Of a stretch of 64,000 nt of DNA, positions 3,755 through 46,751 are shown in pieces. The DNA comes from a bacterium (GTDB lineage Bacteria > Patescibacteriota > Patescibacteriia > Patescibacteriales > UBA12465). The notes under the pieces are model-generated. The model searched no databases, was not told where the DNA came from, and was given only the letters and a program-made list of their open reading frames with translations. Every line of letters begins with the position of its first letter. The stretch's first letter is position 1. The stretch spans positions 370,643-434,642 of the forward strand of contig DAOMZR010000001.1 in NCBI GenBank assembly GCA_035400585.1, written 5' to 3'. Position numbers and translations under genes: made by a program.

Positions 3755-5149
3755 TTAATAACCAATATTTTTAATAAAATAATCCTTTAAATCACTGATT
3801 TTAATTCTTTCCTGTTCCATTGAATCTCGATGTCTTAAGGTAACATCATTATTTTCCAGACTATCAAAATCGACTGTTAAACAATAAGGCGTTCCTATTT
3901 CATCTTGACGGCGATAACGCTTACCGATATTACCATTGTCGTCAAATTCACACTTCCAATTAATTTTTAATACATCAAAAACTTCTTTGGCTTTAGAAAC
4001 TAATTCTGGTTTATTTTTTAACAAAGGAAAAACAGCAATTTTAACTGGGGCTAATTTAGAAGAAATTTTTAAAACAATTCTAGAATTATCTCCCTCACCC
4101 TCTTCACAATAAGCATCAGATAAAATAGCCAAAAAAGTTCTACCAACACCAGCCGACGTTTCAATTATATGAGGAGTAAAACGAGAGTTGTCGCTTGGAT
4201 CTAAATAAGTTAGATCTTTACCAGAGTGTTTGCTGTGTTGAGTCAAATCATAATCTCCTCGAGCATGTATTCCTTCTAGCTCTTTAAAACCAAAAGGAAA
4301 GTTATACTCAATATCATAAGCTTCTTTAGCATAAAAAACCAAATTTTCATGTTTGTGCCATTTTAAATTATTCTCCTTAATCCCTAAACTCAAATAAAAA
4401 TTCCAACGAACATCCTTCCATTCATTATAATATTTCTGATAATCTTCTGGCCTAATAAAATATTGCATTTCCATTTGCTCAAACTCTCTAGTTCTAAAAA
4501 TAAACTGTCTGGCAGTTATCTCATTTCTAAAAGCCTTACCAATTTGAGCAACTCCAAAAGGAACTTTAACTCTAGTTGAGTCTAAAACATTTTTATAATT
4601 AACATAAATTCCCTGGCAAGTTTCTCCTCTTAAATAAGTTGGTTCCTTAGACCAATCTCCGGTAAAATTTCCCAGATTAGATTGAACTAATAAATTAAAT
4701 TTTTTGCCTGGCGTAAAATCTTTAGCTCCGCAATTCGGACATTTTATTTTATCTTTATTTTGGCTAAAAATTTCATTAATTTCCTCTTCGCTCATTTTTT
4801 CATCAGCAAAAATTCCAGCCTCTTCCAATAAAGAATCTAGTCTTAGACGAGAATGACACTTGCGACATTCAGTTAAGGGATCAGAAAAACCTTTGACATG
4901 ACCAGAGGCTTCCCATATTTTGGGATTCATAAAAATAGCTGAATCGAGACCAACAACATCGTTGCGATACTGAGTCATAGCTTTCCACCAAGCGTTTTTG
5001 ATATTATTAGCCAATTCTACTCCGTAAGGACCGTAATCGTAAACGGCCGGAAAACCATTATAAATTTCCGAGGATTGAAAAACAAAACCCCGTCTTTTAC
5101 ACAAAGAAACTATTTTTTCCATTTTACTTTCTTGGTTGCCACTGCTCAT
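3755..5149 (-). CDS. glyQS: glycine--tRNA ligase (class II, single-chain GlyQS type)
   Basis: This 464-aa product begins MEKIVSLCKRRGFVFQSSEIYNG, which is typical of dimeric GlyRS. Class II core motifs are present. The start may instead be the internal MEKIV. Confidence 0.9.
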   Translation of the reverse strand: MSSGNQESKMEKIVSLCKRRGFVFQSSEIYNGFPAVYDYGPYGVELANNIKNAWWKAMTQYRNDVVGLDSAIFMNPKIWEASGHVKGFSDPLTECRKCHSRLRLDSLLEEAGIFADEKMSEEEINEIFSQNKDKIKCPNCGAKDFTPGKKFNLLVQSNLGNFTGDWSKEPTYLRGETCQGIYVNYKNVLDSTRVKVPFGVAQIGKAFRNEITARQFIFRTREFEQMEMQYFIRPEDYQKYYNEWKDVRWNFYLSLGIKENNLKWHKHENLVFYAKEAYDIEYNFPFGFKELEGIHARGDYDLTQHSKHSGKDLTYLDPSDNSRFTPHIIETSAGVGRTFLAILSDAYCEEGEGDNSRIVLKISSKLAPVKIAVFPLLKNKPELVSKAKEVFDVLKINWKCEFDDNGNIGKRYRRQDEIGTPYCLTVDFDSLENNDVTLRHRDSMEQERIKISDLKDYFIKNIGY

Positions 5150-5169
5150 ATTTTTAAATATATTTAAAT

Positions 5170-6852
5170 TTAAATTTCTTCAATATTAGTTTTAATACCC
5201 AACAAAGAAAAAGCGTTTTTCATTAAAACAATGCAAGATTTAATTAACACCACTCTGGCTCGCATGACAGCCTCTTCTGCCTGTAAAATATTAACTTTTT
5301 GATAATAATCATTAAATATTTTTACAAAAGAAAACAAATATTTTGCCACCTCACTAGGATCATTATCTTTTCCAGCTTTAATAATAATATCCCCATATTT
5401 GGAAATTTCCAAACAAATTATTTTTTCAATTTCATCTTTTAAGCTATCAGCTACAGAATTGAAATCGATTTGAGACGGAATTTGAAAATTTGATTTTCTA
5501 ACAATACTTTTCATTCTAACTAGACTGTATAAAATATAAAGAGCTCCAAACCCATCAAACTTCAAAGCATTCTCTATGTCAAAGGTTATCACTTTATTTG
5601 GAGAAACTTTAAGCATTTCAAATTTTAAAATAGCCACGGCTAGTTTTTGAGAATTTTCTTCTATTTTATCATCACTCCAATCTTGGTGTCTCTCTTTGGT
5701 TTCTGATACTAATTTATTGAAAATCTGATTATAAAGATCTTTTAATAGAACAATTTTACCTGAACGAGAAGACATCATTCCGTCTGGCAACTTAACAAAA
5801 TCATAGGCTAGATGAGTAAAGTCATTTTTATAACCGGCTAATTCTAAAATTTTAAATAATTGTTTAAAATGCAAACTTTGCCTTACATCAACTACGATAA
5901 AAGATTTTTTTAAATTAGAAAAATCGGAATTCTTTTTTTCAGCTAAAGCTAAATCAGCCACGGCATACAAAGCGGTACCATCACTTCTAACCACCGGCAA
6001 AACACCCAAATTATATTTCTCTAAATCAGCAATAATTGCTCCTTGACTTTTTTTAAAAATTTCTTTTTTTAAAAAATTATCTACTATTTCAACCCCTCTT
6101 TCGGTAAAATCGCTTTCAAAATAAGTTTTATCAAATTTTATATCCAAGAGAGAATAAATATCATCAAATTCTTTTAAGCTTAATTTTCTGGTTTCTTTCC
6201 ATAATTGATAATTGTCTCCCTTTTTGCCTTCAATATCTATCATTATTTTACTAATTTCTTCAGAAATTTCTGGTTTTTTTTCTATCTCAGAAACAGACCA
6301 AGAATAACACTCTCCTATGTTTTGGCTATGCCCCATTTTATAAGCCCAAACGGTTTTGGCCGTATTTATGCCAAGATCATTAATGAAAGAAACAGGATGA
6401 GCATCAAAACCATTAGCTTTAAAAATTTTAACCAAAGAATCACCCAAAACAATATTTCTTAAATGGCCAATATGTATTTCTTTGTGGGTGTTAGCATTAG
6501 AATATTCAAAAATAACCCTATCTTGCCCACCAATATTATTATAAAAAAGATTTTTTTGATTATCCAAAGTGATTTTAATTGTTTCAGCTATTAAATATTT
6601 TTTGTTTATAAAAAAATTAAGATATGGACCAGCTATATCTACTTTTTCAACAATTAAGTTTAATTCCGGTTCGGACAAAATTTTATCTTTAATTTTCAAA
6701 GATAAAACTTTTAAATCTTCTTTGGATTTTTTAGCCAAAGAAAAAAGAGGCAAAGATAAGTCGCCCAAATCATTGCTCGGCGGATAAACAAAGATATTTT
6801 GTTCAATATCCAAATTTTTAGCTATTTTTTCTTTAATATGGTCTAAAATCAT
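5170..6852 (-). CDS. argS: arginine--tRNA ligase
   Basis: This is a 560-aa product with the class I HIGH motif (HIGHLRN). The length and layout match ArgRS. Confidence 0.9.
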   Translation of the reverse strand: MILDHIKEKIAKNLDIEQNIFVYPPSNDLGDLSLPLFSLAKKSKEDLKVLSLKIKDKILSEPELNLIVEKVDIAGPYLNFFINKKYLIAETIKITLDNQKNLFYNNIGGQDRVIFEYSNANTHKEIHIGHLRNIVLGDSLVKIFKANGFDAHPVSFINDLGINTAKTVWAYKMGHSQNIGECYSWSVSEIEKKPEISEEISKIMIDIEGKKGDNYQLWKETRKLSLKEFDDIYSLLDIKFDKTYFESDFTERGVEIVDNFLKKEIFKKSQGAIIADLEKYNLGVLPVVRSDGTALYAVADLALAEKKNSDFSNLKKSFIVVDVRQSLHFKQLFKILELAGYKNDFTHLAYDFVKLPDGMMSSRSGKIVLLKDLYNQIFNKLVSETKERHQDWSDDKIEENSQKLAVAILKFEMLKVSPNKVITFDIENALKFDGFGALYILYSLVRMKSIVRKSNFQIPSQIDFNSVADSLKDEIEKIICLEISKYGDIIIKAGKDNDPSEVAKYLFSFVKIFNDYYQKVNILQAEEAVMRARVVLIKSCIVLMKNAFSLLGIKTNIEEI

Positions 6853-17502: not shown

Positions 17503-19063
<1,561 letters not shown>

Positions 19064-19212
19064 AAATATTTAGAATTTTGATTGCTCAAAATATAATGTT
19101 ATCATTACCTAATTTTATAGAAAACTATAAAATATTGGATTTATTGAATTGATGCCTGTTAGCATCAAAATCTCACCAAACAAAAAATATAAAAGAACGT
19201 TTTGCAAATTAA

Positions 19213-19241
19213 ATTATAGACACTATCAGAAATAATGTCAA
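19213..19241 (-). promoter_or_regulatory. consensus promoter TTGACA-17-TATAAT in the 5S-16S spacer, directed at 16S
   Basis: On the minus strand, TTGACA lies at 19241-19236, the spacer is 17 nt, and TATAAT lies at 19218-19213. A GTTCTTTT (boxA-like) element follows at 19198-19191. Confidence 0.7.
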
Positions 19242-19260
19242 CTAAATTAAATTGCATAAT

Positions 19261-19374
<114 letters not shown>

Positions 19375-19426
19375 ATTATGCAATCTAATAAGATTACATA
19401 AATGTAATTAACTTAAAATTAGAAAA

Positions 19427-22441
<3,015 letters not shown>

Positions 22442-22626
22442 ATTTCTAACTTTAAAAAATTAAAAATGTTCTCTAATTTATATTTTTCTTCGAAATAAAA
22501 CTTATTATTGAAATTGCTTAAGAATAATAAGTTTGTCATTTTGTTATTAAAGTCCTTCCAATAAACAGCAAAAATTTGAAAACTATTTTACATAATTTTC
22601 AAGTTTGTGATATTTATTTTGACAAA

Positions 22627-22747
22627 GAAAAAACCGCTTGAAAAGCGGTCACCAAAAACGTTAAGTTTGGAACCGCGACTAAAAATTATTTAAAGATAAA
22701 AATGAATTTAGCATATTCAAACAAACTCGAACCTTTTTTTAAACAGT
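22627..22747 (-). ncRNA. candidate ~120-nt small RNA or rRNA leader, bounded by a consensus promoter and an intrinsic terminator
   Basis: The promoter at 22782-22754 predicts a TSS near 22747. A terminator hairpin ACCGCTT (22633-22639) / AAGCGGT (22643-22649) is followed by a U-tract on the minus strand. There is no convincing ORF or SD inside. No family is recognised. Confidence 0.35.
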
Positions 22748-22753
22748 GAGTCC

Positions 22754-22782
22754 ATTATATATTATTTTTAAAACATTGTCAA
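22754..22782 (-). promoter_or_regulatory. consensus promoter TTGACA-17-TATAAT downstream of PLD gene, upstream of 23S
   Basis: On the minus strand, TTGACA lies at 22782-22777 and TATAAT at 22759-22754. Confidence 0.7.
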
Positions 22783-22825
22783 CCCCTTGATAAATAAGGG
22801 TTAAATCAGTATTTTTTAAAACTAA

Positions 22826-24040
22826 TTATTTATTTTTTAAATAATTAATTTTAAAAGAATCAACAAAGGATTCTACCAAAAAAGGTATGTCGGAAATTAT
22901 TATTGATTCATCGTTATTAAAAAAACCAGCTATGCTCCAATTATTAGTACCCGTAATTAAAATTTTATCATCAATTATCATGGTGTGCTGATGCAAAAAA
23001 GAATTTAAAATATTTTGTCCCAATTCTTGCATTTCATATTGTCTTTTTTCATCCGTTATTACCTCAACATTATCATAAACCCCGACTTTAAAAATACTTT
23101 TAAAAACTGATCCGTTTTGATTAAGATTTGACTCATCAGTAATCATTGTTATTTTTTTGTCTTTTGGTATTAATAAAATTTCTTTAGCCAAACCTCTATC
23201 AGTCCAAAGCCAAATCATTATTCTAATTTTTTCTTGAGTGTTTTTTGCTAATTCAATCATTCTATTTTTAGCATTATTATATTTATCTCCTGGTGAAAAC
23301 CAAATTTCTATAAAGCCGTTTTTATACTTAATACGCGCAGCAAATGGGTTAACATTTTCAATTGTTTTTCTAGCTCCGTGAATGCCAGAATTTATTCTGT
23401 CAAATTCTTCGCCAAAAATTCTAACAAAATTTTCATCATTAGTTTTAATTAAAAAACTAGGATCATATTTTTCTTGCAAATGGGTAAAATTATAGGAACC
23501 AAAAAACAATGTTCGACTTTCAAGTTGACGATCAATAATAATAAACTTATGGTGCATTAAATATGATCTATTATTTTTCCAAAAAGAATAGGTTATATCT
23601 TTCCTGGTAATAAAATTTTCTATATCAGCAAAAAAAACATCATGAATATCCTTTCCCTTGCTGCAAACCAAAACAACTATTTCAACTCCTCTATCAGCCG
23701 CTTTTTTCAGGGCTTCCTTAATATTAGAATCGTTCATCGCGTAAACGGCTATTTCAATAGTATTAGTGGCGGAATTAATTGATTTTATAACTTCATCAGA
23801 AAAAATATTTTCACCCAGCTTGTCATTAAAATAAACATCAGCCTTAAAATCATAATCAACAGTCAACTCTTCTCTTGGGGCTATCGGAGTTATTTCTTTT
23901 AAATTTTTATTGTCAGAAAAAAAATAAAACAAAGAAAGAAAAAACAAAAAAAGAATTAAGAACAAACTAAAAAAAATTATAATTAAATTCCTTGTATTAT
24001 TTTTATTTTTTTTCTCTAATTTCTTTTGATTGGATTTCAT
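22826..24040 (-). CDS. membrane-anchored PLD-family protein, third gene of the RT cassette
   Basis: This 404-aa product has a basic N-terminus followed by one TM segment (LIIIFFSLFLILFLFFLSLFYFF). The first motif, HHKFIIID...GSYN (about 23531-23554), is canonical HxK(x)4D. The second, HQHTMIIDDKILITGTNN (about 22970-22993), has the lysine position replaced. Its ATG at 24040 overlaps the upstream gene by 38 nt. Confidence 0.8.
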   Translation of the reverse strand: MKSNQKKLEKKNKNNTRNLIIIFFSLFLILFLFFLSLFYFFSDNKNLKEITPIAPREELTVDYDFKADVYFNDKLGENIFSDEVIKSINSATNTIEIAVYAMNDSNIKEALKKAADRGVEIVVLVCSKGKDIHDVFFADIENFITRKDITYSFWKNNRSYLMHHKFIIIDRQLESRTLFFGSYNFTHLQEKYDPSFLIKTNDENFVRIFGEEFDRINSGIHGARKTIENVNPFAARIKYKNGFIEIWFSPGDKYNNAKNRMIELAKNTQEKIRIMIWLWTDRGLAKEILLIPKDKKITMITDESNLNQNGSVFKSIFKVGVYDNVEVITDEKRQYEMQELGQNILNSFLHQHTMIIDDKILITGTNNWSIAGFFNNDESIIISDIPFLVESFVDSFKINYLKNK

Positions 24041-25706
24041 ATTTTTTATAATAACTTAAAATTTGATTATCGTTTTTAGAAAAAACAATTATGCTTGTTT
24101 TATTTAATTCATCGCTGATTAAGCGCAACATTTTATTAATGGGTTCATAGTTTAGATCCAGCCATAAATTATCAATAACTATAACATCCGGCTTAACAAT
24201 TAAACAATGAGCACAATGAGCCGCAAAAGATTTTACAAAATTATTAAAAACAAATTCTAATTTTATATTATAGTTAGCATCCTGGCTTAAATTTTGAGCT
24301 ATCAGATCAAATTTTTGAATCTTTTTTATATTTTTTTCAACTTCCTCCATCGAAATCATCTCCTTGTCTTTTCCCGAAACAAATTCCAATAAAGTTCGCA
24401 CAGATTTAAATAGTGGATCAAAATAATAGGGACGAGGCCGACAACCAGACCAAAAAGAATAATTGAATTTCTGACCATCAATTTTTACTTTCCAGCTCAG
24501 AGGATTGCAAACCTTTAAACCAGAAAAAGCTAAGGCTAAAGATGTTTTTCCGGATAAATTTTCACCTGTAAATAAATATCTATTTCCGCTTTTAAAAACA
24601 AAAGACAAGCGACGATAGTACGCACCTTCTAAAAACAATTTCGTCTTTCTATTGTGAAAGCTTATTTCGTTTCTAACTATTGGCGCCATTTTTGTTAACG
24701 AAATTCTTTTTGGCAAAACTGATAGCACTATTCCTAGTTTAGCTGGGTAAGTATAAAGACCAATAGTTGAAGCCTCATAAAGAGCTCGGGAAATATAGAT
24801 AATAAAAAATATAAGAAATAGATAGTTGAAATTATGTTTAGCAAAATAAGAATTCAAAAATCCTTCATTAAAATTTACAAAAAAATAAATAATTATTACT
24901 AATAAAAAAATAAACTTTCCAGCCAAACGAAACCACAAATCGCGACGAATTCTGAAATAAGAATCAAAATCTACCAAGCGATCAAATTTTTTAATAAAAT
25001 AACCCTCTTGAAAAAATCTTTTTAAAAAAGATTTATCAGAAAAATTGAAACTGATATGTTTTAATATTTGAGAATAAAAAGTAACCTCTCTGGATATATA
25101 ATATCTGGAAATAAAATAAGAAAACAAAATTATAATCAAAGAAAGTACCACAAAAAATAAAGAAGACCACAATAAACTTAAATCAATCAAATGGGCAATA
25201 AAAACAAAACAGGCAAAATAAAAAAACCAACGGATAACTGCAAAAAAAACTTTAGTAACAAAAGAGGAAAGCAGGGGCAAATGATAAGATATTTTGGCTA
25301 TTAAATTAGATTGAGACTCTCCGTTTATAGAAGCCTCCCCTCTGTTTAAATAAAAAGAAACTATTCTTTTTCTAACCTCGTTGCTAAGATAAACTGATAA
25401 AGTTTTTTCCTTTTTTATTGAAAAATATGAAAACAATAGAAAAAGAACGGAAAAAACAATAAACAACAACAAGAGGCTATTATTCGTTGTTTCAAAATTT
25501 AATTTATTGCGACTAATTAATAGCAACAACAACTCTACAATTGTCTGACAAACAATTAGGGTTAAAGCCAAAAAAAATAAAACCCTATTTTTTTTATAAA
25601 ATTTTTTAAAAAAAGAAATGTAAAAACCCAAACCTCTTTCTTGATCAATCGGCAAGGCATTGTTTCTTATTTTTTTTAATTCTGAAATATTTTTATTTTC
25701 GATCAT
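24003..25706 (-). CDS. ABC half-transporter-like protein (multi-TM N-domain plus degenerate nucleotide-binding domain), second gene of the RT cassette
   Basis: In this 567-aa product, roughly the first 330 aa hold about 6 hydrophobic helices. The C-terminal domain has Walker A GENLSGKT (24543-24566). The signature position reads LSQDA instead of LSGGQ. The Walker B position reads VIVIDN (24168-24185), with Asn where the catalytic Glu normally sits. The gene overlaps the RT stop by 14 nt. Confidence 0.75.
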   Translation of the reverse strand: MIENKNISELKKIRNNALPIDQERGLGFYISFFKKFYKKNRVLFFLALTLIVCQTIVELLLLLISRNKLNFETTNNSLLLLFIVFSVLFLLFSYFSIKKEKTLSVYLSNEVRKRIVSFYLNRGEASINGESQSNLIAKISYHLPLLSSFVTKVFFAVIRWFFYFACFVFIAHLIDLSLLWSSLFFVVLSLIIILFSYFISRYYISREVTFYSQILKHISFNFSDKSFLKRFFQEGYFIKKFDRLVDFDSYFRIRRDLWFRLAGKFIFLLVIIIYFFVNFNEGFLNSYFAKHNFNYLFLIFFIIYISRALYEASTIGLYTYPAKLGIVLSVLPKRISLTKMAPIVRNEISFHNRKTKLFLEGAYYRRLSFVFKSGNRYLFTGENLSGKTSLALAFSGLKVCNPLSWKVKIDGQKFNYSFWSGCRPRPYYFDPLFKSVRTLLEFVSGKDKEMISMEEVEKNIKKIQKFDLIAQNLSQDANYNIKLEFVFNNFVKSFAAHCAHCLIVKPDVIVIDNLWLDLNYEPINKMLRLISDELNKTSIIVFSKNDNQILSYYKKYEIQSKEIREKK

Positions 25707-26904
25707 AATGAAATTTTAAGTAAAATTTATACAAGGAAATTATTTTGATCTGGCTTTCGGATAATTTATCAACAAGCAATCTTCTATTTCTGGAATTATA
25801 TTTGCCAAACAAAAATTCAGTTAGAACTTTAAAAAACGATTCGGACAAAAGTTTTATTTGATCAGAGTCATTTATTTGTGGTTTGCTTTTTATAATACCT
25901 TTAAAAACATTATTAAAATTTTTTTGAGGATTCTTCATTATTTTTCTCAAAATAGTCATCTTATAATTTTGACTATAATTTTTGTAAATCAAAATCGATT
26001 GCCAACTTTTTATTATTTTTTTGACAAAATTATCTGGCAAGGATATTTTACCCGCCAAAAAATTATAACCTAAATAAGAAAATTTTTCTTTAGCTTGACC
26101 GAAAAATATTTTATCTAAATTTATTTTGAGTTTCAAATTCGAAACATCATTTAAAAATTCTTCTTTATTTTTTTCTAATTTTTCCTTGTCTGGATCAAGC
26201 ATTATCAAATCATCACCTACTCGTAAATAAAATTGGGCACGAGAAGAAAATTTCTTATCGATATCGTTTAAATAAAAATTGGTTAAAAGACCAAAAATCG
26301 GACAACCAATGACTAGCCCCCTATTTGGTTTTAAAAATTCACCTTGATAGTAAAAACTATTATTAACAAAAACAGATAATAATTTTAAAACGGAATCATC
26401 TTTAATAAATTCTGACAACTTCTCCATCATTAATGTCCGATCGATTTCACCAGAAAAATTACTTAAATCAGCCGTAAAGACATAATCGGTATTGAAAAAT
26501 TTACGATATCTTTTGGCCATTAAATAAGCTGCGTTATAAGGTGATTTTCCTGGACGATAAGAAAAAAGGCGAGACGAAAACTCTTTTTCAAATTCGCCCA
26601 AAAGAACTCGATAAATTGCCTGGGATTTAACTCTCTCCTTAATATTGTAAATAAATATCTCTCTATTTTTTTCTGGATTATGTTTTTTAGGAATATAAAT
26701 ATTAAGGGCCGGATCAATTTCTTTAAATTCTCTCATTTCTTTTTTAATTTGCCTAATTAAATTAAAAACAAACAAATTAAAAAAATTTAAATTTAAACCG
26801 TCCAAGCCCCTGTACCTATTTTCTTTGTTTTCCAAATGAAAATAATCAAAAACCTCTTGATAGGCTTCCCTAATATTCTTAGAAGATGTTATTTTTTTAA
26901 ACAT
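25693..26904 (-). CDS. reverse transcriptase (unclassified; not obviously retron, DGR or group II)
   Basis: RT motifs occur in the expected order: IYIPKKHNPEKNREIFIYNIKERVKSQAIYRVL (motif 1), SYRPGKSPYNAA (2), YVFTADLSNFSGEID (3/A), GLVIGCPIFGLLTNFYLNDID (4/B), YLRVGDDLIML (5/C; VGDD is encoded at 26220-26209), LKLKINLDK (6) and FSYLGYNF (7). A C-terminal region of about 110 aa follows. The track start at 26913 is a TTG codon, so I use the ATG at 26904. Confidence 0.85.
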   Translation of the reverse strand: MFKKITSSKNIREAYQEVFDYFHLENKENRYRGLDGLNLNFFNLFVFNLIRQIKKEMREFKEIDPALNIYIPKKHNPEKNREIFIYNIKERVKSQAIYRVLLGEFEKEFSSRLFSYRPGKSPYNAAYLMAKRYRKFFNTDYVFTADLSNFSGEIDRTLMMEKLSEFIKDDSVLKLLSVFVNNSFYYQGEFLKPNRGLVIGCPIFGLLTNFYLNDIDKKFSSRAQFYLRVGDDLIMLDPDKEKLEKNKEEFLNDVSNLKLKINLDKIFFGQAKEKFSYLGYNFLAGKISLPDNFVKKIIKSWQSILIYKNYSQNYKMTILRKIMKNPQKNFNNVFKGIIKSKPQINDSDQIKLLSESFFKVLTEFLFGKYNSRNRRLLVDKLSESQIKIISLYKFYLKFHYDRK

Positions 26905-26916
26905 TTTAAACAAAAA

Positions 26917-27306
26917 ACTGCTCTTAAGATTTTTAACAGTTATATCTGTTAAAAATTAATAATATAATATTCATTGAGAAGTGGCGGATGAGACCCAGTG
27001 ATGGCAGGGTAGCGGTAAAAACCAGCTCTAAATTATCTTGGCATTATCAAGAATGGAAAAAAACAGGCTGATTTTAATGCCCTTTTTAAAAAAGGTTTTA
27101 AGAGCAGTCAACAAATGTAAAGGTAGCAGAAAAAATCGTTTCAGGATCTTCGACGGATTACCATCAAAGATTATTTAAGTATTTCATTGAGAAGTAGTGT
27201 AAAAGCGAAATTTAAGGAGTGATCCTTAATTACCGATAAAATTTTTGTATCTCTTATCGATTTTGATACCCATAACAATGGTTTTGAAACGATTTTAAAC
27301 TGCTAC
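26917..27306 (-). ncRNA. candidate RT-associated structured noncoding RNA / long structured leader
   Basis: No ORF of 60 aa or more lies in 26905-27391. G+C is locally elevated (28/50 in 26981-27030 by my count). Two long-range helices and several local hairpins are present. A minus-strand promoter sits immediately upstream of the outer helix. See the findings for coordinates. Confidence 0.55.
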
Positions 27307-27310
27307 TTAA

Positions 27311-27338
27311 ATTATATACCAAATGAACAAAAAGTCAA
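27311..27338 (-). promoter_or_regulatory. promoter TTGACT-16-TATAAT for the ncRNA/RT cassette
   Basis: On the minus strand, TTGACT lies at 27338-27333, the spacer is 16 nt, and TATAAT lies at 27316-27311. The predicted TSS is about 27304-27306. Confidence 0.6.
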
Positions 27339-27391
27339 AAAAATAATAATTATTTTAACTAAATTTTATAACACAAAATTATAATGGATAT

Positions 27392-28258
27392 ATGAAAAAA
27401 AATAAAAAAATAATTTTCTGGCTATTTTTTTTGTTAATAATTTTTATTGTTTTTTTGAATTATTATTTAAAAATTAGAAATAATAAAAATTTAAATATTT
27501 TCTTTCTGGATTCAGGCCAGGCTGATACAATATTAATAAAAACACCAGAAGAACAAAATATTATTATTGATTTAGGCAGTAAAGATGGACTTAAAGGTGT
27601 TGGTCAGCAAATTTTTTGGTGGGACAGAAAAATAGACATATTAATAATAACCCATCCTCACGATGATCATATCTTGGCCATTCCTCAATTAATAGATAAA
27701 TATAAAATAAATAAAATAATATTTACTGGGATAATATACGATTCACCAATCTATGAAGAAATAATTAAAAAAGCGCAAGATAAAAAAATAAAATTATTAA
27801 TTCCGCAAATCAATCAAAAAATATTATTGGGAAAGAGTTGCGAGTTGGATTTTTTATATCCATTAGAAAGTTTAAAAGATAAAAAAATAGAAAATATTAA
27901 CAATTCTTCCATTGTTAATAGATTGAAATATAAAAACAATTATTTTTTATTCATGGGTGATTCTGAAATTGACATTGAAGAAAAATTATTAGAAAAAAAT
28001 TATGAATTAAAAAGTGATGTTTTAAAAGTTAGCCACCATGGCTCCATTAGTTCTAGTCATCAAGAATTTATAAAAAAAATAAACCCGAAAATTTCAATCA
28101 TCATGGTTGGTCAAAATAATAAATTCAACCATCCAAGTTTAAGAACATTAAATAAATTACAAAAAATCGGCTCTTTGATTTTTAGAACCGATTTAAACGG
28201 AGATATAAATATAACAAGTGATGGTCAATTGATAAAATATAAACTATCCAGCGAATAA
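27392..28258 (+). CDS. ComEC/Rec2-type MBL-fold domain protein with N-terminal TM anchor
   Basis: This is a 288-aa product. The motifs FLDSGQADTILI, ITHPHDDH, LKVSHHGS and FNHPS...RTDLNGDI match the C-terminal metallo-beta-lactamase domain of ComEC. Confidence 0.8.
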   Translation: MKKNKKIIFWLFFLLIIFIVFLNYYLKIRNNKNLNIFFLDSGQADTILIKTPEEQNIIIDLGSKDGLKGVGQQIFWWDRKIDILIITHPHDDHILAIPQLIDKYKINKIIFTGIIYDSPIYEEIIKKAQDKKIKLLIPQINQKILLGKSCELDFLYPLESLKDKKIENINNSSIVNRLKYKNNYFLFMGDSEIDIEEKLLEKNYELKSDVLKVSHHGSISSSHQEFIKKINPKISIIMVGQNNKFNHPSLRTLNKLQKIGSLIFRTDLNGDINITSDGQLIKYKLSSE

Positions 28259-29512
28259 TTTATTGGCTAATAAATTTTTAGCTGTTTCCATACTAATCAT
28301 TCCTCTGTTAGTAAGATCTTTAATGCTTCTTTCAAAGCTAATCATACCTTCGCTAGAATGAGTTTCAATAACACTTCTTATTTGGGCTATTTTTTGTTCC
28401 CTAATAAGATTGGAAACAGCTGAATTATTCAACAAGACTTCTCTCACCGCTACTCGACCGCCATTAACACCAGGAACGAGTATTTGAGAGATTACTGCTG
28501 ATAAAATCAAGGATAACTGTGATTTTATTTGATTTTGCTGATGAGGTGGAAAAATATCAATAATACGATCAATAGTTTGAGAAGCATTGCAAGTATGCAA
28601 AGTAGCTAAAACTAAATGTCCAGTTTCAGCCAAGGTTATAGCCGTAGAAATAGTTTCTAAATCGCGCATTTCCCCAACCATAATAACATTAGGATCTTGT
28701 CTTAAAACATGTCTTAGGCCACTAGCAAAATCGGGCATATCGGTTCCTAATTGTCTTTGGCTAATTATGCTTTTTTTAGGTTTAAATATAAATTCGATTG
28801 GATCTTCAAAGGTGACAATATTACAACTACGAAAATTATTTATATGATCGATCATGGCCGCCAAAGAAGTTGATTTTCCAGAACCAGTTGGACCAGTTAT
28901 CAAAATTAATCCCTGAGTTAATCCTAGGAGACCATAAACTTGTTTGGGCATATCCAACATTTCCATCGATGGCATAACCTCATCAATAATTCTAGCTGTC
29001 ATTTTGATATTGCCCTTCTCAAAAGATAAGTTAGATCTAAATCTATAATTTTCAAATTGATAAGAAAAATCTAAATCCTTTTTTCTATTTAAGCGATCAA
29101 TTTGTTTTTTACTTAAAATATGTTTAATCGCCTTAATCATTTCTTTGTTAGTAACCAAGCTTAAGTCATAAGGCTCTAGAGACGGAGTAAAAGATGAAAT
29201 ATTTTTGGAAATTTCGCTACTAATTAATTCATCATCTTCTGACAAAACAAACCTCTCAACCGAATTTCCCGTATCTTCATAAGACCCTAAAATATTTTTT
29301 TGGTTAGAATTGTTTTCTGAGAGTAAATCTTGTTCTTTGCCAATGTTATTATCAAAAGAATTATCAATCATGTCCAAGTCTGGCATTGATTGAAATTTGT
29401 CGATTGAAATTAAATTACCATCTATTCTTAGTATTGGCCTTAAACCAGAAACTAAGTGAATATCAGAGGCTTTTTGTTCGACGGCAATCTTAAAAATTTG
29501 ATTAATATCCAT
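28244..29512 (-). CDS. pilT: type IV pilus retraction ATPase PilT with N-domain insertion
   Basis: The motifs ASDIHL, GPTGSGKSTSLAAMI, FEDPIEF, VIMVGEMRD and TGHLVLATLHT are present. The track start is a TTG codon, so I use the ATG at 29512 (MDINQIF). A low-complexity insertion of about 70 aa follows IDGNLISID. Confidence 0.88.
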   Translation of the reverse strand: MDINQIFKIAVEQKASDIHLVSGLRPILRIDGNLISIDKFQSMPDLDMIDNSFDNNIGKEQDLLSENNSNQKNILGSYEDTGNSVERFVLSEDDELISSEISKNISSFTPSLEPYDLSLVTNKEMIKAIKHILSKKQIDRLNRKKDLDFSYQFENYRFRSNLSFEKGNIKMTARIIDEVMPSMEMLDMPKQVYGLLGLTQGLILITGPTGSGKSTSLAAMIDHINNFRSCNIVTFEDPIEFIFKPKKSIISQRQLGTDMPDFASGLRHVLRQDPNVIMVGEMRDLETISTAITLAETGHLVLATLHTCNASQTIDRIIDIFPPHQQNQIKSQLSLILSAVISQILVPGVNGGRVAVREVLLNNSAVSNLIREQKIAQIRSVIETHSSEGMISFERSIKDLTNRGMISMETAKNLLANKLFAG

Positions 29513-46420: not shown

Positions 46421-46494
46421 GGGCAATTAGCTCAGCTGGCTAGAGCGCAACACTGATAATGTTGAGGTCGGAGGTTCAAGTCCTCCATTGCCCA
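46421..46494 (+). tRNA. tRNA-Ile (anticodon GAT)
   Basis: A manual cloverleaf folds as follows: acceptor GGGCAAT/ATTGCCC, anticodon arm CAACA-CTGATAA-TGTTG, and T arm GGAGG-TTCAAGT-CCTCC. Confidence 0.9.
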
Positions 46495-46510
46495 CAGTAC
46501 AATATAATGA

Positions 46511-46583
46511 AGCGGGGTAGAGCAGTTGGCAGCTCGCCAGGCCCATAACCTGGAGGCCGTGGGTTCGAGTCCCACCCCCGCAA
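46511..46583 (+). tRNA. tRNA-Met (anticodon CAT), probably initiator
   Basis: The cloverleaf has U8, D stem GAGC/GCTC, anticodon arm CCAGG-CCCATAA-CCTGG, and T arm GTGGG-TTCGAGT-CCCAC. There is an A1xA72 mismatch and an A11:U24 pair, which are initiator hallmarks. Confidence 0.85.
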
Positions 46584-46588
46584 CATAA

Positions 46589-46660
46589 GCCTCGGTAGCT
46601 CAGTGGTAGAGCAAAGGACTGAAAATCCTTGTGTCGTCAGTTCAATTCTGACCCGGGGCA
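46589..46660 (+). tRNA. tRNA-Phe (anticodon GAA)
   Basis: The acceptor is GCCTCGG/CCGGGGC, the anticodon arm is AAGGA-CTGAAAA-TCCTT, and the T arm is GTCAG-TTCAATT-CTGAC. Confidence 0.9.
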
Positions 46661-46674
46661 CGTTAATAAACCCT

Positions 46675-46751
46675 CGGGGTGTGGCCCAGTTGGCTAGGGC
46701 GTCTGGTTTGGGACCAGAAGATCGTGGGTTCAAGTCCCACCACCCCGACCA
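46675..46751 (+). tRNA. tRNA-Pro (anticodon TGG), CCA encoded
   Basis: The acceptor is CGGGGTG/CACCCCG, the anticodon arm is TCTGG-TTTGGGA-CCAGA, and the T arm is GTGGG-TTCAAGT-CCCAC. ACCA follows the acceptor. Confidence 0.9.

What the first reader, a model, noticed from the sequence alone, without database searches (positions are those of the whole stretch)
22826..27338. Candidate undescribed RT-based system: promoter, ~390-nt structured ncRNA, reverse transcriptase, degenerate ABC-type membrane protein, membrane-anchored PLD protein
Seen directly: one minus-strand unit begins at a TTGACT-16-TATAAT promoter (27338-27311). It runs through about 390 nt of G+C-enriched noncoding sequence. Three genes then follow with overlapping ends. 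The RT (26904-25693) overlaps the ABC-like gene (25706-24003) by 14 nt. The ABC-like gene overlaps the PLD-family gene (24040-22826) by 38 nt. That pattern is typical of translational coupling and obligate co-expression. The RT has all seven RT motifs. It carries no endonuclease domain, nor the retron, DGR or group II features I checked. From established knowledge, bacterial RTs with an upstream ncRNA plus effector genes (retrons, DRT/UG systems, Abi RTs) are usually anti-phage systems, and PLD/HKD domains and membrane proteins are common effector modules. As inference, I do not know any described RT system whose partners are a 6-TM ABC half-transporter-like protein plus a TM-anchored PLD. The cassette sits in otherwise core genome, between a ComEC-like gene and the rRNA locus.
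Basis: partly seen in the sequence, partly recalled or inferred. Interest (0 to 1): 0.9.

Follow-up and report, generated by a model that had tools for sequence, protein, structure and literature searches.

The report
Undescribed RT–RNA–ABC–PLD cassette in Patescibacteria
A conserved operon in tiny candidate-phyla bacteria joins a reverse transcriptase and its own folded leader RNA to two membrane proteins (a crippled ABC exporter and a surface-anchored nuclease-like enzyme); no such combination was found described, and it probably represents a new reverse-transcriptase-based system.

Summary
One minus-strand unit runs: promoter, non-coding leader, RT, ABC-like gene and PLD gene, with 14-nt and 38-nt gene overlaps.

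One amendment. The ~390-nt leader is two tandem copies (163 and 196 nt) of a single conserved RNA. It has a long closing helix, two further covarying stems and a covarying pseudoknot. The RNA lies upstream of the RT in 55 of 57 related loci.

RT→ABC-like→PLD is adjacent in every related locus with enough sequence (about 60, RT identity 35-70%). All named records are Patescibacteria. A 28%-identity Peregrinibacteria locus keeps all three genes in a different orientation.

- **RT:** group-II-intron-like, with an invariant VGDD active site. It is not a retron, DGR, intron or defined UG/DRT member.
- **ABC:** a type IV exporter fold with only Walker A and the Walker B Asp left.
- **PLD:** N-in/C-out, closest by sequence to Nuc/NucT/Zucchini nucleases. 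Its second HKD motif is HxH.

Two distant non-CPR relatives pair the RT with a specifically related ABC exporter but have no PLD.

No description was found in the searchable literature. Function is inferred, with a retron/DRT-like conflict system most likely (0.45). Novelty: new variant of a known kind.

The parts
27311..27338 (-). Sigma-70-type promoter TTGACT-16-TATAAT, about 15 nt upstream of RNA copy A
   Evidence: It is an 11/12 consensus match. A TTGACT -35 element is present upstream of the RNA in the syntenic loci L001, L005 and L010. Function is inferred.
27133..27295 (-). Leader RNA copy A (163 nt). Closing helix AAAUCGUUUC/GAAACGAUUU, P2 CCAU/AUGG, GUAUC:GAUAC pseudoknot, CUCAAUGAA motif and a terminal hairpin.
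   Evidence: Covariance model R1 scores it 54.2 bits, E 4e-11, and it was not in the seed. The MFE fold shows the same helices. Its form resembles the single RNA of L005 and L010.
26915..27110 (-). Leader RNA copy B (196 nt). Closing helix CUGCUCUUAA/UUAAGAGCAG ends 10 nt before the RT AUG. Also P2, the GCAUUAA:AUAAUGC pseudoknot, a long hairpin, the CUCAAUGAA motif and a terminal hairpin.
   Evidence: R1 scores it 88.3 bits, E 6.5e-20, and R2 36.3 bits. The closing helix was found independently.
25693..26904 (-). [quoted passage not shown] RT motifs 1-7 are present, the active site is R-V-G-D231-D232, and there is a diverged thumb/maturase-like C-terminus.
24003..25706 (-). ABC exporter-like half-transporter, 567 aa (6 TM helices plus NBD) with a degenerate NBD. 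Walker A GENLSGKT and the Walker B Asp are kept. The catalytic Glu is Asn, and there is no LSGGQ, Q-loop Gln or H-loop His.
   Evidence: Family alignment. AlphaFold2 model with pLDDT 79. Foldseek top matches are MsbA, PglK, TM287/288 and PCAT1, E about 1e-13. Pfam ABC_tran is only sub-threshold.
22826..24040 (-). Membrane-anchored two-HKD PLD-superfamily protein, 404 aa. A K/R-rich N-terminus precedes one TM helix, so it is predicted N-in/C-out. HKD1 is H163-x-K165-x4-D170, and HKD2 is H350-x-H352-x4-D357.
   Evidence: AlphaFold2 model with pLDDT 91. Fold matches are bacterial PLD, vaccinia F13 and PLD3/4. Sequence-profile matches are Zucchini, NucT and Nuc.
22779..22804 (-). Hairpin 22 nt after the PLD stop codon, a possible end of the unit. 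It overlaps the -35 element of the rRNA promoter (22782-22754).
   Evidence: and the sequence. It has no clear U-tract, so a terminator function is uncertain.

Best explanation
**What it is (shown).** A self-contained, vertically and horizontally inherited module. It consists of a promoter, one or two copies of a 160-280-nt pseudoknotted RNA, a catalytically intact group-II-intron-lineage RT, an ABC exporter-fold protein and a membrane-anchored Nuc/NucT-like PLD-superfamily enzyme. The ABC protein's ATPase site keeps only the P-loop. The PLD's catalytic domain is predicted to face outward.

**How it most likely works (inferred by analogy with retrons and the ncRNA-dependent DRT systems).** The whole unit is transcribed from one promoter. 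The RT binds its cognate leader RNA and probably reverse-transcribes part of it. This RNP, with or without cDNA, sits on the cytoplasmic face of the ABC-like dimer. The most conserved residues of that dimer lie at the cytoplasmic ends of TM3-TM6. The ABC-like protein binds ATP but does not turn it over. It would act as a transmembrane transducer or gate rather than a pump, and would control the surface PLD phosphodiesterase/nuclease. A trigger such as phage infection that perturbs the RNP would switch the membrane pair into its effector state: an abortive-infection or exclusion-type conflict system.

The RNA closing helix ends 1-25 nt before the RT start codon. It may also let the RT repress its own translation, as LtrA does at group II intron domain IVa.
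For: **Obligate linkage**
- RT, ABC-like and PLD are adjacent in every locus with room (about 60 loci, RT identity 35-70%, unrelated flanks).
- Gene ends overlap by 8-38 nt.
- At 28% RT identity (L065) all three genes persist although ABC and PLD are inverted relative to the RT.
- Identities of the three proteins fall in step.

**RNA partner**
- The RNA is detected on the RT strand directly upstream in 55 of 57 loci.
- In the model-fitted alignment 87.9% of cells pair, against 38-43% when partners are slid, and 26 of 29 pairs show compensatory changes.
- In an unfitted MAFFT alignment 95.4% pair against 27-46%, and 38 of 48 pairs show compensatory changes (0/500 shuffles reach this). The pseudoknot is 100% paired there.
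- There are at least six covarying pseudoknot versions.
- Five loci keep two tandem copies, each with its own compensated helices. In L015 the RNA lies 2 kb from the RT. Both facts argue for a trans-acting RNP partner rather than only an mRNA leader.

**RT activity.** D146, G230, D231 and D232 and the other RT motifs are invariant.

**Conflict-system flavour**
- The nearest RT relatives are RT-Cas1, Cas6-RT and TOTE-system RT fusions.
- The PLD also hits DISARM DrmC models.
- The cassette was found in 56 loci among 185,579 species genomes.
- Three genomes carry two divergent cassettes.
- Cassette proteins are 62-70% identical where the syntenic PilT-like and RNase III genes are 84-88% identical.

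**ABC as a non-pump.** Loss of the catalytic Glu, LSGGQ, Q-loop and H-loop is family-wide, while Walker A is kept.
Against: - No experiment and no transcript or cDNA data exist for this system.
- The nine neighbourhoods inspected hold housekeeping, metal-resistance or giant surface-protein genes, not recognisable defence islands.
- In one lineage the cassette sits stably between core genes.
- The cassette is essentially absent from viral contigs, phage records and plasmid records.
- The architecture never swaps effectors.
- A nuclease-like domain outside the cell cannot attack phage DNA in the cytoplasm.
- No contact between the RT and the ABC protein has been shown.
- The template and primer for the RT are unknown. 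No conserved G follows the closing helix as in retrons.
Confidence: 0.45

Rival explanations
1. A physiological, non-defence membrane machine of episymbiotic Patescibacteria. The ABC-like protein and the surface Nuc/NucT-like enzyme would process or move nucleic acid or lipid at the cell surface, for salvage, uptake, export or host interaction. The RT-RNA complex would supply a DNA product or regulate the machine.
For: - The PLD is predicted N-in/C-out. From established knowledge, Nuc is periplasmic and NucT is membrane-associated.
- Each PLD half is closest to Nuc, NucT and Zucchini. The fold also matches the ssDNA exonucleases PLD3/4.
- The ABC fold matches the lipid and lipid-linked-oligosaccharide flippases MsbA and PglK.
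- The cassette lies among core genes and is syntenic in one lineage.
- No defence island surrounds it.
- The RT-ABC pairing also occurs in two non-CPR loci.
Against: - Distribution is rare and patchy: 56 loci in 185,579 species genomes.
- Some genomes carry two divergent copies.
- The cassette diverges faster than its core neighbours.
- Type IV pilin genes are not enriched nearby: 0.25 per 10 kb of flank against 0.47 per 10 kb across the window.
- An ATPase-dead homodimeric ABC is a poor transporter.
- No known salvage or uptake pathway needs an RT.
Confidence: 0.25
2. The upstream RNA is only a cis-acting leader: an RT-binding translational operator or a riboswitch-like element controlling the operon. 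It is not a template, and the RT acts on other substrates (for example DNA repair, as with G2L4).
For: - The closing helix ends 1-25 nt before the RT start codon in most loci.
- The RNA always has the RT's orientation and lies directly upstream.
- From established knowledge, group II RTs bind domain IVa at their own start codon.
- Group-II-like RTs such as G2L4 work without a dedicated RNA (papers listed).
Against: - This genome uses essentially no Shine-Dalgarno sites (0 of 34 ORFs), so sequestering an SD is not the mechanism.
- In five loci a second, distal copy keeps all helices by compensatory change.
- In L015 the RNA is 2 kb and two genes away from the RT.
- In L065 the ABC and PLD genes are on the other strand, so a leader could not control them.
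- The RNA occurs only with this cassette in about 730 kb searched on both strands.
Confidence: 0.15
3. A decayed or unusual group II intron or other mobile retroelement that carries cargo genes. The RNA would be a ribozyme remnant.
For: - The RT's best matches are group II intron RTs.
- A weak GIIM (maturase) signal appears in near relatives.
- The cassette occurs in unrelated genomic contexts.
Against: - No Rfam group II domain matches even at E up to 5, including in GC-richer loci.
- The RNA lies wholly 5' of the ORF, and the next gene overlaps the RT stop codon, leaving no room for domains V and VI.
- There is no endonuclease domain.
- The RT scores 124 bits against the NCBIfam intron model's cut-off of 300.
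- The cassette sits at the same site across species that have diverged to 64-70% RT identity.
- No flanking repeats were found.
Confidence: 0.04

Closest known systems
Retrons (RT + msr/msd ncRNA + effector genes)
   Same: A structured ncRNA closed by a long inverted-repeat helix lies immediately upstream of the RT in the same transcription unit. Effector genes are co-operonic. RNA and RT vary together between paralogous cassettes.
   Different: The RT is not of the retron clade (28 bits to Ec86 against 113 bits to a group II RT). No conserved priming G follows the 5' arm; the sequence there is AAAAC. The RNA fold differs (pseudoknot, no Rfam match). The effectors are an ABC exporter-like protein and a PLD, which I know from no retron type (own knowledge; no paper found).
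ncRNA-dependent DRT systems of UG/Abi class 2 (DRT2, DRT9; UG26/UG17/UG4 by HMM)
   Same: A roughly 400-aa RT without extra domains is preceded by a dedicated structured ncRNA. The PADLOC UG26 model matches at 118 bits.
   Different: The UG26 match covers only the RT core (profile positions 42-289 of 398) and is weaker than a generic RT model (133 bits). Solved DRT2 and the chain I take to be DRT9 (9ioa; the PDB record names it only as an RNA-dependent DNA polymerase) score 52-53 bits, against 100-114 bits for group II RTs and RT-Cas1. According to PMC9226505, UG26 members associate with a YcjD-like endonuclease, not with ABC and PLD proteins.
Group II intron RTs and domesticated group-II-like RTs (G2L4, RT-Cas1, TOTE-system RTs)
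   Same: These are the closest sequence relatives. The N-terminal extension and RT motifs 1-7 align over about 280 residues. The nearest outgroups in 1.84 billion proteins are RT-Cas1, Cas6-RT, RT-TPR-AEP (TOTE) fusions and tandem double RTs.
   Different: There is no ribozyme, no cas genes and no primase fusion. The active site is VGDD, not YADD or YIDD. The RT has a dedicated RNA and two membrane partners. The family is a discrete cluster (590-200 bits) separated from the outgroups (165 bits or less).
Nuc / NucT / Zucchini (PLD6) nucleases and the PLD3/PLD4/F13 two-HKD membrane proteins
   Same: Each half scores 52-66 bits to Zucchini, NucT and Nuc. The overall two-HKD fold matches bacterial PLD, F13 and PLD3/4. 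The N-terminal membrane anchor with an extracytoplasmic catalytic domain is as in PLD3/4 (established knowledge).
   Different: It is one chain with two HKD halves rather than a Nuc-type homodimer. The second motif is invariantly HxH instead of HxK. The substrate is unknown. It is encoded in an RT operon.
Type IV ABC exporters (MsbA, PglK, TM287/288, PCAT1)
   Same: The full-length 6-TM plus NBD fold matches (TM-score about 0.6, E about 1e-13).
   Different: Sequence identity is 12-17%. All hydrolytic motifs are lost except Walker A and the Walker B Asp, in what would be a homodimer. The strongest conservation is at the cytoplasmic ends of TM3-TM6. Relatives next to distant RTs keep a canonical or half-degenerate NBD.

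Membership tests
Retron | RT belongs to the retron RT clade | tested here: not met
   The family profile scores 28 bits to retron Ec86 RT, against 100-114 bits to group II RTs and RT-Cas1. A single-sequence search finds no retron structure at E<0.01.
Retron | msr-msd ncRNA upstream of the RT, closed by a1/a2 inverted repeats, with a conserved branching G after a1 | tested here: inconclusive
   A closing helix of 11-30 bp is present and covaries. The conserved sequence after the 5' arm is AAAAC, with no G. No Rfam family matches.
Retron | RT-made branched msDNA | not testable with these tools
   This needs nucleic-acid extraction or in vitro reverse transcription.
Group II intron | Ribozyme domains I-VI (catalytic domain V) flanking the ORF | tested here: not met
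   No Intron_gpII or group-II-D1D4 match at gathering score, nor at E up to 5, in the window or in four GC-richer loci. The ABC-like gene overlaps the RT stop codon.
Group II intron | Intron-encoded RT/maturase reaching the curated model threshold | tested here: not met
   TIGR04416 scores 123.7 bits against a cut-off of 300.
Diversity-generating retroelement | Template repeat / variable repeat pair near the RT | tested here: not met
   Only AT-rich low-complexity repeats of 38 nt or less occur in 22000-28500.
UG/Abi DRT (UG26 and other class 2 groups) | Full-length match to a group-specific RT model, and the group's partner gene | tested here: not met
   UG26 scores 118 bits over profile positions 42-289 of 398 only, and a generic RT model scores higher. 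The YcjD-like partner reported for UG26 (PMC9226505) is absent. The exhaustive search puts RT-Cas1 and TOTE RTs nearest.
CRISPR-associated RT | Fusion or adjacency to Cas1/Cas6 and a CRISPR array | tested here: not met
   No Cas domains appear in the RT or in nine inspected neighbourhoods.
G2L4-type group-II-like RT | Free-standing RT with a YIDD active site | tested here: not met
   The active site is an invariant VGDD. The RT always has RNA, ABC and PLD partners. It scores 44 bits to G2L4 structures.
ABC transporter, type IV exporter | 6-TM plus NBD exporter fold | tested here: met
   AlphaFold2 model with pLDDT 79. Foldseek gives MsbA, PglK, TM287/288 and PCAT1 over the full length.
ABC transporter, type IV exporter | Catalytic NBD motifs (Walker B Glu, LSGGQ, Q-loop, H-loop) | tested here: not met
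   Family-wide, the Glu is Asn, and there is no LSGGQ and no H-loop His. Only Walker A (K387) and the Walker B Asp (D512) are conserved.
PLD superfamily (HKD) | Two HxK(x)4D motifs forming one active site | tested here: met
   HKD1 is intact. HKD2 is H350-x-H352-x4-D357 with G-T-x-N, an invariant Lys-to-His variant. PLDc_2 matches twice, E 6e-30.
Nuc/NucT-type PLD nuclease | Nuclease rather than lipid substrate | not testable with these tools
   Sequence profiles favour Zucchini, NucT and Nuc. The fold search also returns lipid enzymes. Enzymology is needed.

The most novel reading that the evidence does not exclude
The RT-RNA complex and the ABC-fold protein form a reverse-transcription-coupled transmembrane device whose purpose is not phage defence. 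One version: the RT makes a DNA product that is handed to, or gates, a non-hydrolysing exporter-like channel and is then processed by a surface Nuc-type enzyme. The purpose could be episymbiont-host interaction, or nucleic-acid export or uptake. An RT-ABC partnership older than the Patescibacteria cassette fits this reading, because specifically related ABC exporters sit tail-to-tail with distant RT relatives in two non-CPR genomes.
Probability: 0.2. Interest if true: 0.92.

Novelty: new variant of a known kind. Interest (0 to 1): 0.8.

Why it matters
All characterised bacterial RT + ncRNA + effector systems use retron-type or UG/Abi-type RTs together with cytoplasmic or simple membrane effectors. 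This cassette would add three things:

- a third RT lineage (group-II-intron-derived) that has acquired its own dedicated, pseudoknotted RNA;
- the first pairing of an RT with an ABC exporter fold and a surface-anchored PLD enzyme;
- an RT-based system native to Candidate Phyla Radiation bacteria, whose defence and host-interaction biology is poorly known.

The compact RT (403 aa) with a defined cognate RNA of about 165-200 nt is also a candidate for RT-based tools. The gradient from canonical to fully degenerate ATPase sites among RT-associated ABC proteins offers a natural series for asking how an ABC fold is repurposed from pump to transducer.

Tried and rejected
- **Shine-Dalgarno sequestration by the closing helix.** Rejected. 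The 16S tail is canonical, but 0 of 34 long ORFs have an SD at -5 to -12, and none lies between the helix and the RT AUG.
- **Link to type IV pili or competence.** This was suggested by ComEC-like, PilT-like and pilin neighbours. Rejected: pilin-like genes occur at 0.25 per 10 kb of flank against 0.47 per 10 kb across the window. A first, stricter regex was uninformative.
- **DGR.** No TR/VR repeats.
- **Group II intron or any Rfam family.** Nothing found.
- **Phage or plasmid carriage.** One doubtful IMG/VR contig out of 2.9 million. Only LtrA-like hits at about 26% identity in the phage and plasmid collections.
- **Small secreted proteins next to the distant RT-ABC pairs.** Tested as possible PLD substitutes. 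They are unrelated to each other and have no Pfam match.
- **Metagenome scan for the distant branch.** Two uninformative loci, after one failed attempt.
- **Context of the tandem double-RT outgroup.** The contig is too short.
- **Column-wise counting of P2 and the long hairpin on the model alignment.** Not possible because of register shifts. Replaced by per-sequence analysis and the clade-2 MAFFT alignment.
- **Literature.** Seven searches found no description.

Full report
**Observation**

The RT is 26904-25693, the ABC-like gene 25706-24003 and the PLD gene 24040-22826. The overlaps are 14 nt and 38 nt.

Pfam finds RVT_1 in the first gene (E 1e-16). In the second, ABC_tran is only sub-threshold. 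In the third, PLDc_2 matches twice (E 6e-30).

The promoter-like site TTGACT-16-TATAAT at 27338-27311 is an 11/12 match. The leader has 30-35% G+C against 12-26% around it. It folds much better than shuffled sequence (z = -8.3). A hairpin follows the PLD stop codon, and a separate perfect-consensus promoter serves the 23S rRNA gene.

**Synteny**

The RT has more than 150 relatives of about 400 aa, and every record that carries a taxon name is Patescibacteria. Looking up six of them gave RT, then a ~570-aa protein, then a ~400-aa PLD protein, with overlapping ends. The flanks were unrelated, and one case was a second, divergent cassette on the same contig.

A scan of 185,579 species genomes returned 56 loci. 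tblastn with the three window proteins found all three genes adjacent and in the same order in every locus that had room. Three genomes hold two cassettes.

The most distant locus is L065 (Peregrinibacteria, RT 28% identical). It keeps all three genes with their characteristic motifs, but ABC and PLD are transcribed divergently from the RT. Linkage that survives rearrangement argues strongly for a shared function.

About 30 records are titled 'uncultured Gammaproteobacteria'. I regard those titles as unreliable and did not test them.

**The RNA**

Upstream regions align around a conserved core. A direct search found a closing helix of 11-30 bp spanning 160-290 nt and ending 1-25 nt before the RT AUG. 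Its sequence differs greatly between loci.

A 25-sequence seed gave an RNAalifold consensus in which 18 of 21 pairs show compensatory changes. Covariance model R1 built from it found hits only on the RT strand directly upstream of the RT. A second model from the divergent clade extended the coverage. A filter-free rerun then brought the total to 55 of 57 loci that have upstream sequence. L053 and L054 were missed, although each has a closing helix. L065 also has a closing helix plus the ACUCAUU motif.

- **Model-fitted alignment.** 87.9% of cells pair, against 38-43% for slid partners, and 26 of 29 pairs have double-sided changes.
- **Unfitted MAFFT alignment of clade 2.** 95.4% pair against 27-46%. 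38 of 48 pairs have double-sided changes, and 0 of 500 shuffles reach this.

The architecture, 5' to 3', is:

1. P1 5' arm
2. AAAAC
3. P2 hairpin
4. a 6-7-nt strand
5. a long hairpin whose 7-nt apical loop pairs with that strand
6. variable hairpin(s)
7. the conserved CUCAUUG...UUUAAAU element
8. a terminal hairpin
9. P1 3' arm

The strand-loop pairing in items 4 and 5 is a pseudoknot. It is 100% paired in A7, and 5 of 6 of its pairs covary. At least six covarying versions exist across the family. No Rfam family matches.

**Tandem copies**

In the window, R1 finds two copies. Copy B is 27110-26915 (88 bits). Copy A is 27295-27133 (54 bits) and was not in the seed.

Tandem pairs recur in L026, L030, L050 and L064. 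In L015 two duplicated pilin genes separate the RNA from the RT. These facts, together with the absence of Shine-Dalgarno use in this genome, argue that the RNA is more than a translational leader. The position of P1 next to the AUG still leaves room for autoregulation.

**The RT**

All RT motifs are invariant, and the active site reads R-V-G-D-D.

| Comparison | Score |
|---|---|
| Group II intron RTs (family profile vs solved structures) | 100-114 bits |
| Cas6-RT-Cas1 | 104 bits |
| 9ioa, which I take to be DRT9 (the PDB record says only 'RNA-dependent DNA polymerase') | 53 bits |
| DRT2 | 52 bits |
| G2L4 | 44 bits |
| Retron Ec86 | 28 bits |
| NCBIfam intron model TIGR04416 | 124 bits (cut-off 300) |
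| PADLOC UG26 | 118 bits, RT core only |

An exhaustive profile search of 1.84 billion representatives shows a discrete family of about 50 clusters at 50% identity, scoring 590-200 bits over the full length. Below 165 bits come RT-Cas1, Cas6-RT, RT-TPR-AEP ('TOTE') fusions and tandem double RTs. The RT is therefore a separate domesticated branch of the group-II-like lineage.

**The ABC-like protein**

It belongs to a distinct family of about 570-aa proteins. The AlphaFold2 model (pLDDT 79) matches MsbA, PglK, TM287/288, PCAT1 and TAP over its full length.

Only Walker A and the Walker B Asp are conserved. The catalytic Glu is Asn, and LSGGQ, the Q-loop Gln and the H-loop His are missing family-wide. 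The strongest conservation is in AKISYHLPL, YVSQEVTFYSQ, FDSYFRIRRDxW and GLYxxPAKLG. By the model's helix boundaries these lie at the cytoplasmic ends of TM3-TM6. That placement is my inference.

**The PLD protein**

It is also a distinct family. HKD1 is intact. HKD2 is invariantly HxH.

The K/R-rich N-terminus followed by a single TM helix predicts an N-in/C-out topology by the positive-inside rule (inference). The model (pLDDT 91) matches a bacterial PLD, vaccinia F13, PLD3/4, PLD1/2 and PssA. By sequence profile each half is closest to Zucchini/PLD6, NucT and Nuc. A nuclease or phosphodiesterase role is likelier than lipid synthesis, but this is untested.

**Context**

Nine neighbourhoods show housekeeping, metal-resistance, giant surface-protein and occasional TraG-like genes. 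None is a recognisable defence island.

The cassette is nearly absent from viral, phage and plasmid collections. Pilin genes are not enriched nearby. Between the window and L005 the cassette proteins are 62-70% identical, whereas the syntenic PilT-like and RNase III proteins are 84-88% identical.

**A wider RT-ABC partnership**

Two distant full-length RT relatives lie tail-to-tail with an overlapping ABC exporter. They are P0340 and P0374, which are 42% identical to each other. Their contigs are 57-62% G+C, and P0340's contig (L071) also encodes c-type cytochromes. I read these as non-CPR genomes, but that is an inference from composition and gene content, not a tested assignment.

Those two ABC proteins score 91.5 and 91.6 bits against the cassette's ABC profile. 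The best solved ABC exporters reach 48 bits or less. One of the two has a canonical NBD and the other a half-degenerate one. Neither locus has a PLD.

The RT-ABC pairing is therefore probably older than the Patescibacteria cassette. This rests on two loci only.

**Interpretation**

Shown here: a conserved four-part module with a covarying RNA, a probably active RT, a non-hydrolytic ABC fold and an HKD enzyme.

Inferred: that it works like retrons or the ncRNA-dependent DRTs, with an RT-RNA (and possibly cDNA) complex controlling a membrane effector pair in a conflict setting. I give that reading 0.45.

The rivals are:

- a non-defence surface machine (0.25);
- an RNA that is only a cis-acting leader (0.15);
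- a decayed retroelement (0.04).

No paper describing the combination was found in seven searches.

Noticed in passing
window 17504-22439: The rRNA genes are all on the minus strand in the order 23S (22439-19427), 5S (19374-19260), 16S (19064-17504). The 16S gene therefore lies downstream of 5S rather than at the head of the operon. A perfect TTGACA-17-TATAAT sits at 22782-22754, ahead of the 23S gene.
   Followed up: no
whole window; 16S 3' end near 17504: The 16S tail is the canonical GGATCACCTCCTTTCT. Yet 0 of 34 long ORFs have a Shine-Dalgarno motif at -5 to -12, and leaders are AU-rich.
   Followed up: partly
L015 2794-5992: Three paralogous type IV pilin genes are present. Two of them (4070-5065 and 5093-5992) lie between the leader RNA (3812-3976) and the RT (6001). 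The first and second share near-identical N-terminal halves, which suggests a recent duplication or an assembly artefact.
   Followed up: partly
L026 5526-5993; L030 5627-5992; L050 931-1503; L064 5400-5979: Tandem pairs of the leader RNA recur in four other loci. Each copy has its own compensated closing helix.
   Followed up: partly
L009 10111-10316: A weak RNA-model hit (20 bits, E 0.04) lies immediately downstream of the PLD gene, on the same strand.
   Followed up: no
L071 1059-4134; L075 13-3297: Distant RT relatives in 57-62% G+C contigs (L071 also encodes c-type cytochromes) overlap tail-to-tail with ABC exporters. Those exporters are specifically related to the cassette's ABC-like family. 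One has a canonical NBD and the other a half-degenerate one. There is no PLD nearby. L071 has a GC-rich 246-nt region upstream of the RT, closed by GCCGAAAC/GTTTCGGC.
   Followed up: partly
proteins P0337, P0339, P0348 (L070 311-2875): The nearest outgroup of the RT family includes 834-858-aa proteins with two tandem RT domains plus maturase-like (GIIM) signals. The only contig retrieved was too short to show context.
   Followed up: partly
record titles of L010, L011, L015, L017-L021 and others: About 30 MAG records carrying this cassette are titled 'uncultured Gammaproteobacteria'. Every specifically named record is Patescibacteria, and one protein is labelled Sphaerochaetaceae. These are probably generic or mis-binned labels.
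   Followed up: no
L069 9533-9961: Public gene calls place 46-61-aa ORFs inside the leader RNA region. Given the RNA-level covariation these are probably annotation artefacts.
   Followed up: no
window 46421-46751: A compact tRNA cluster, Ile(GAT)-Met(CAT)-Phe(GAA)-Pro(TGG), lies on the plus strand.
   Followed up: no
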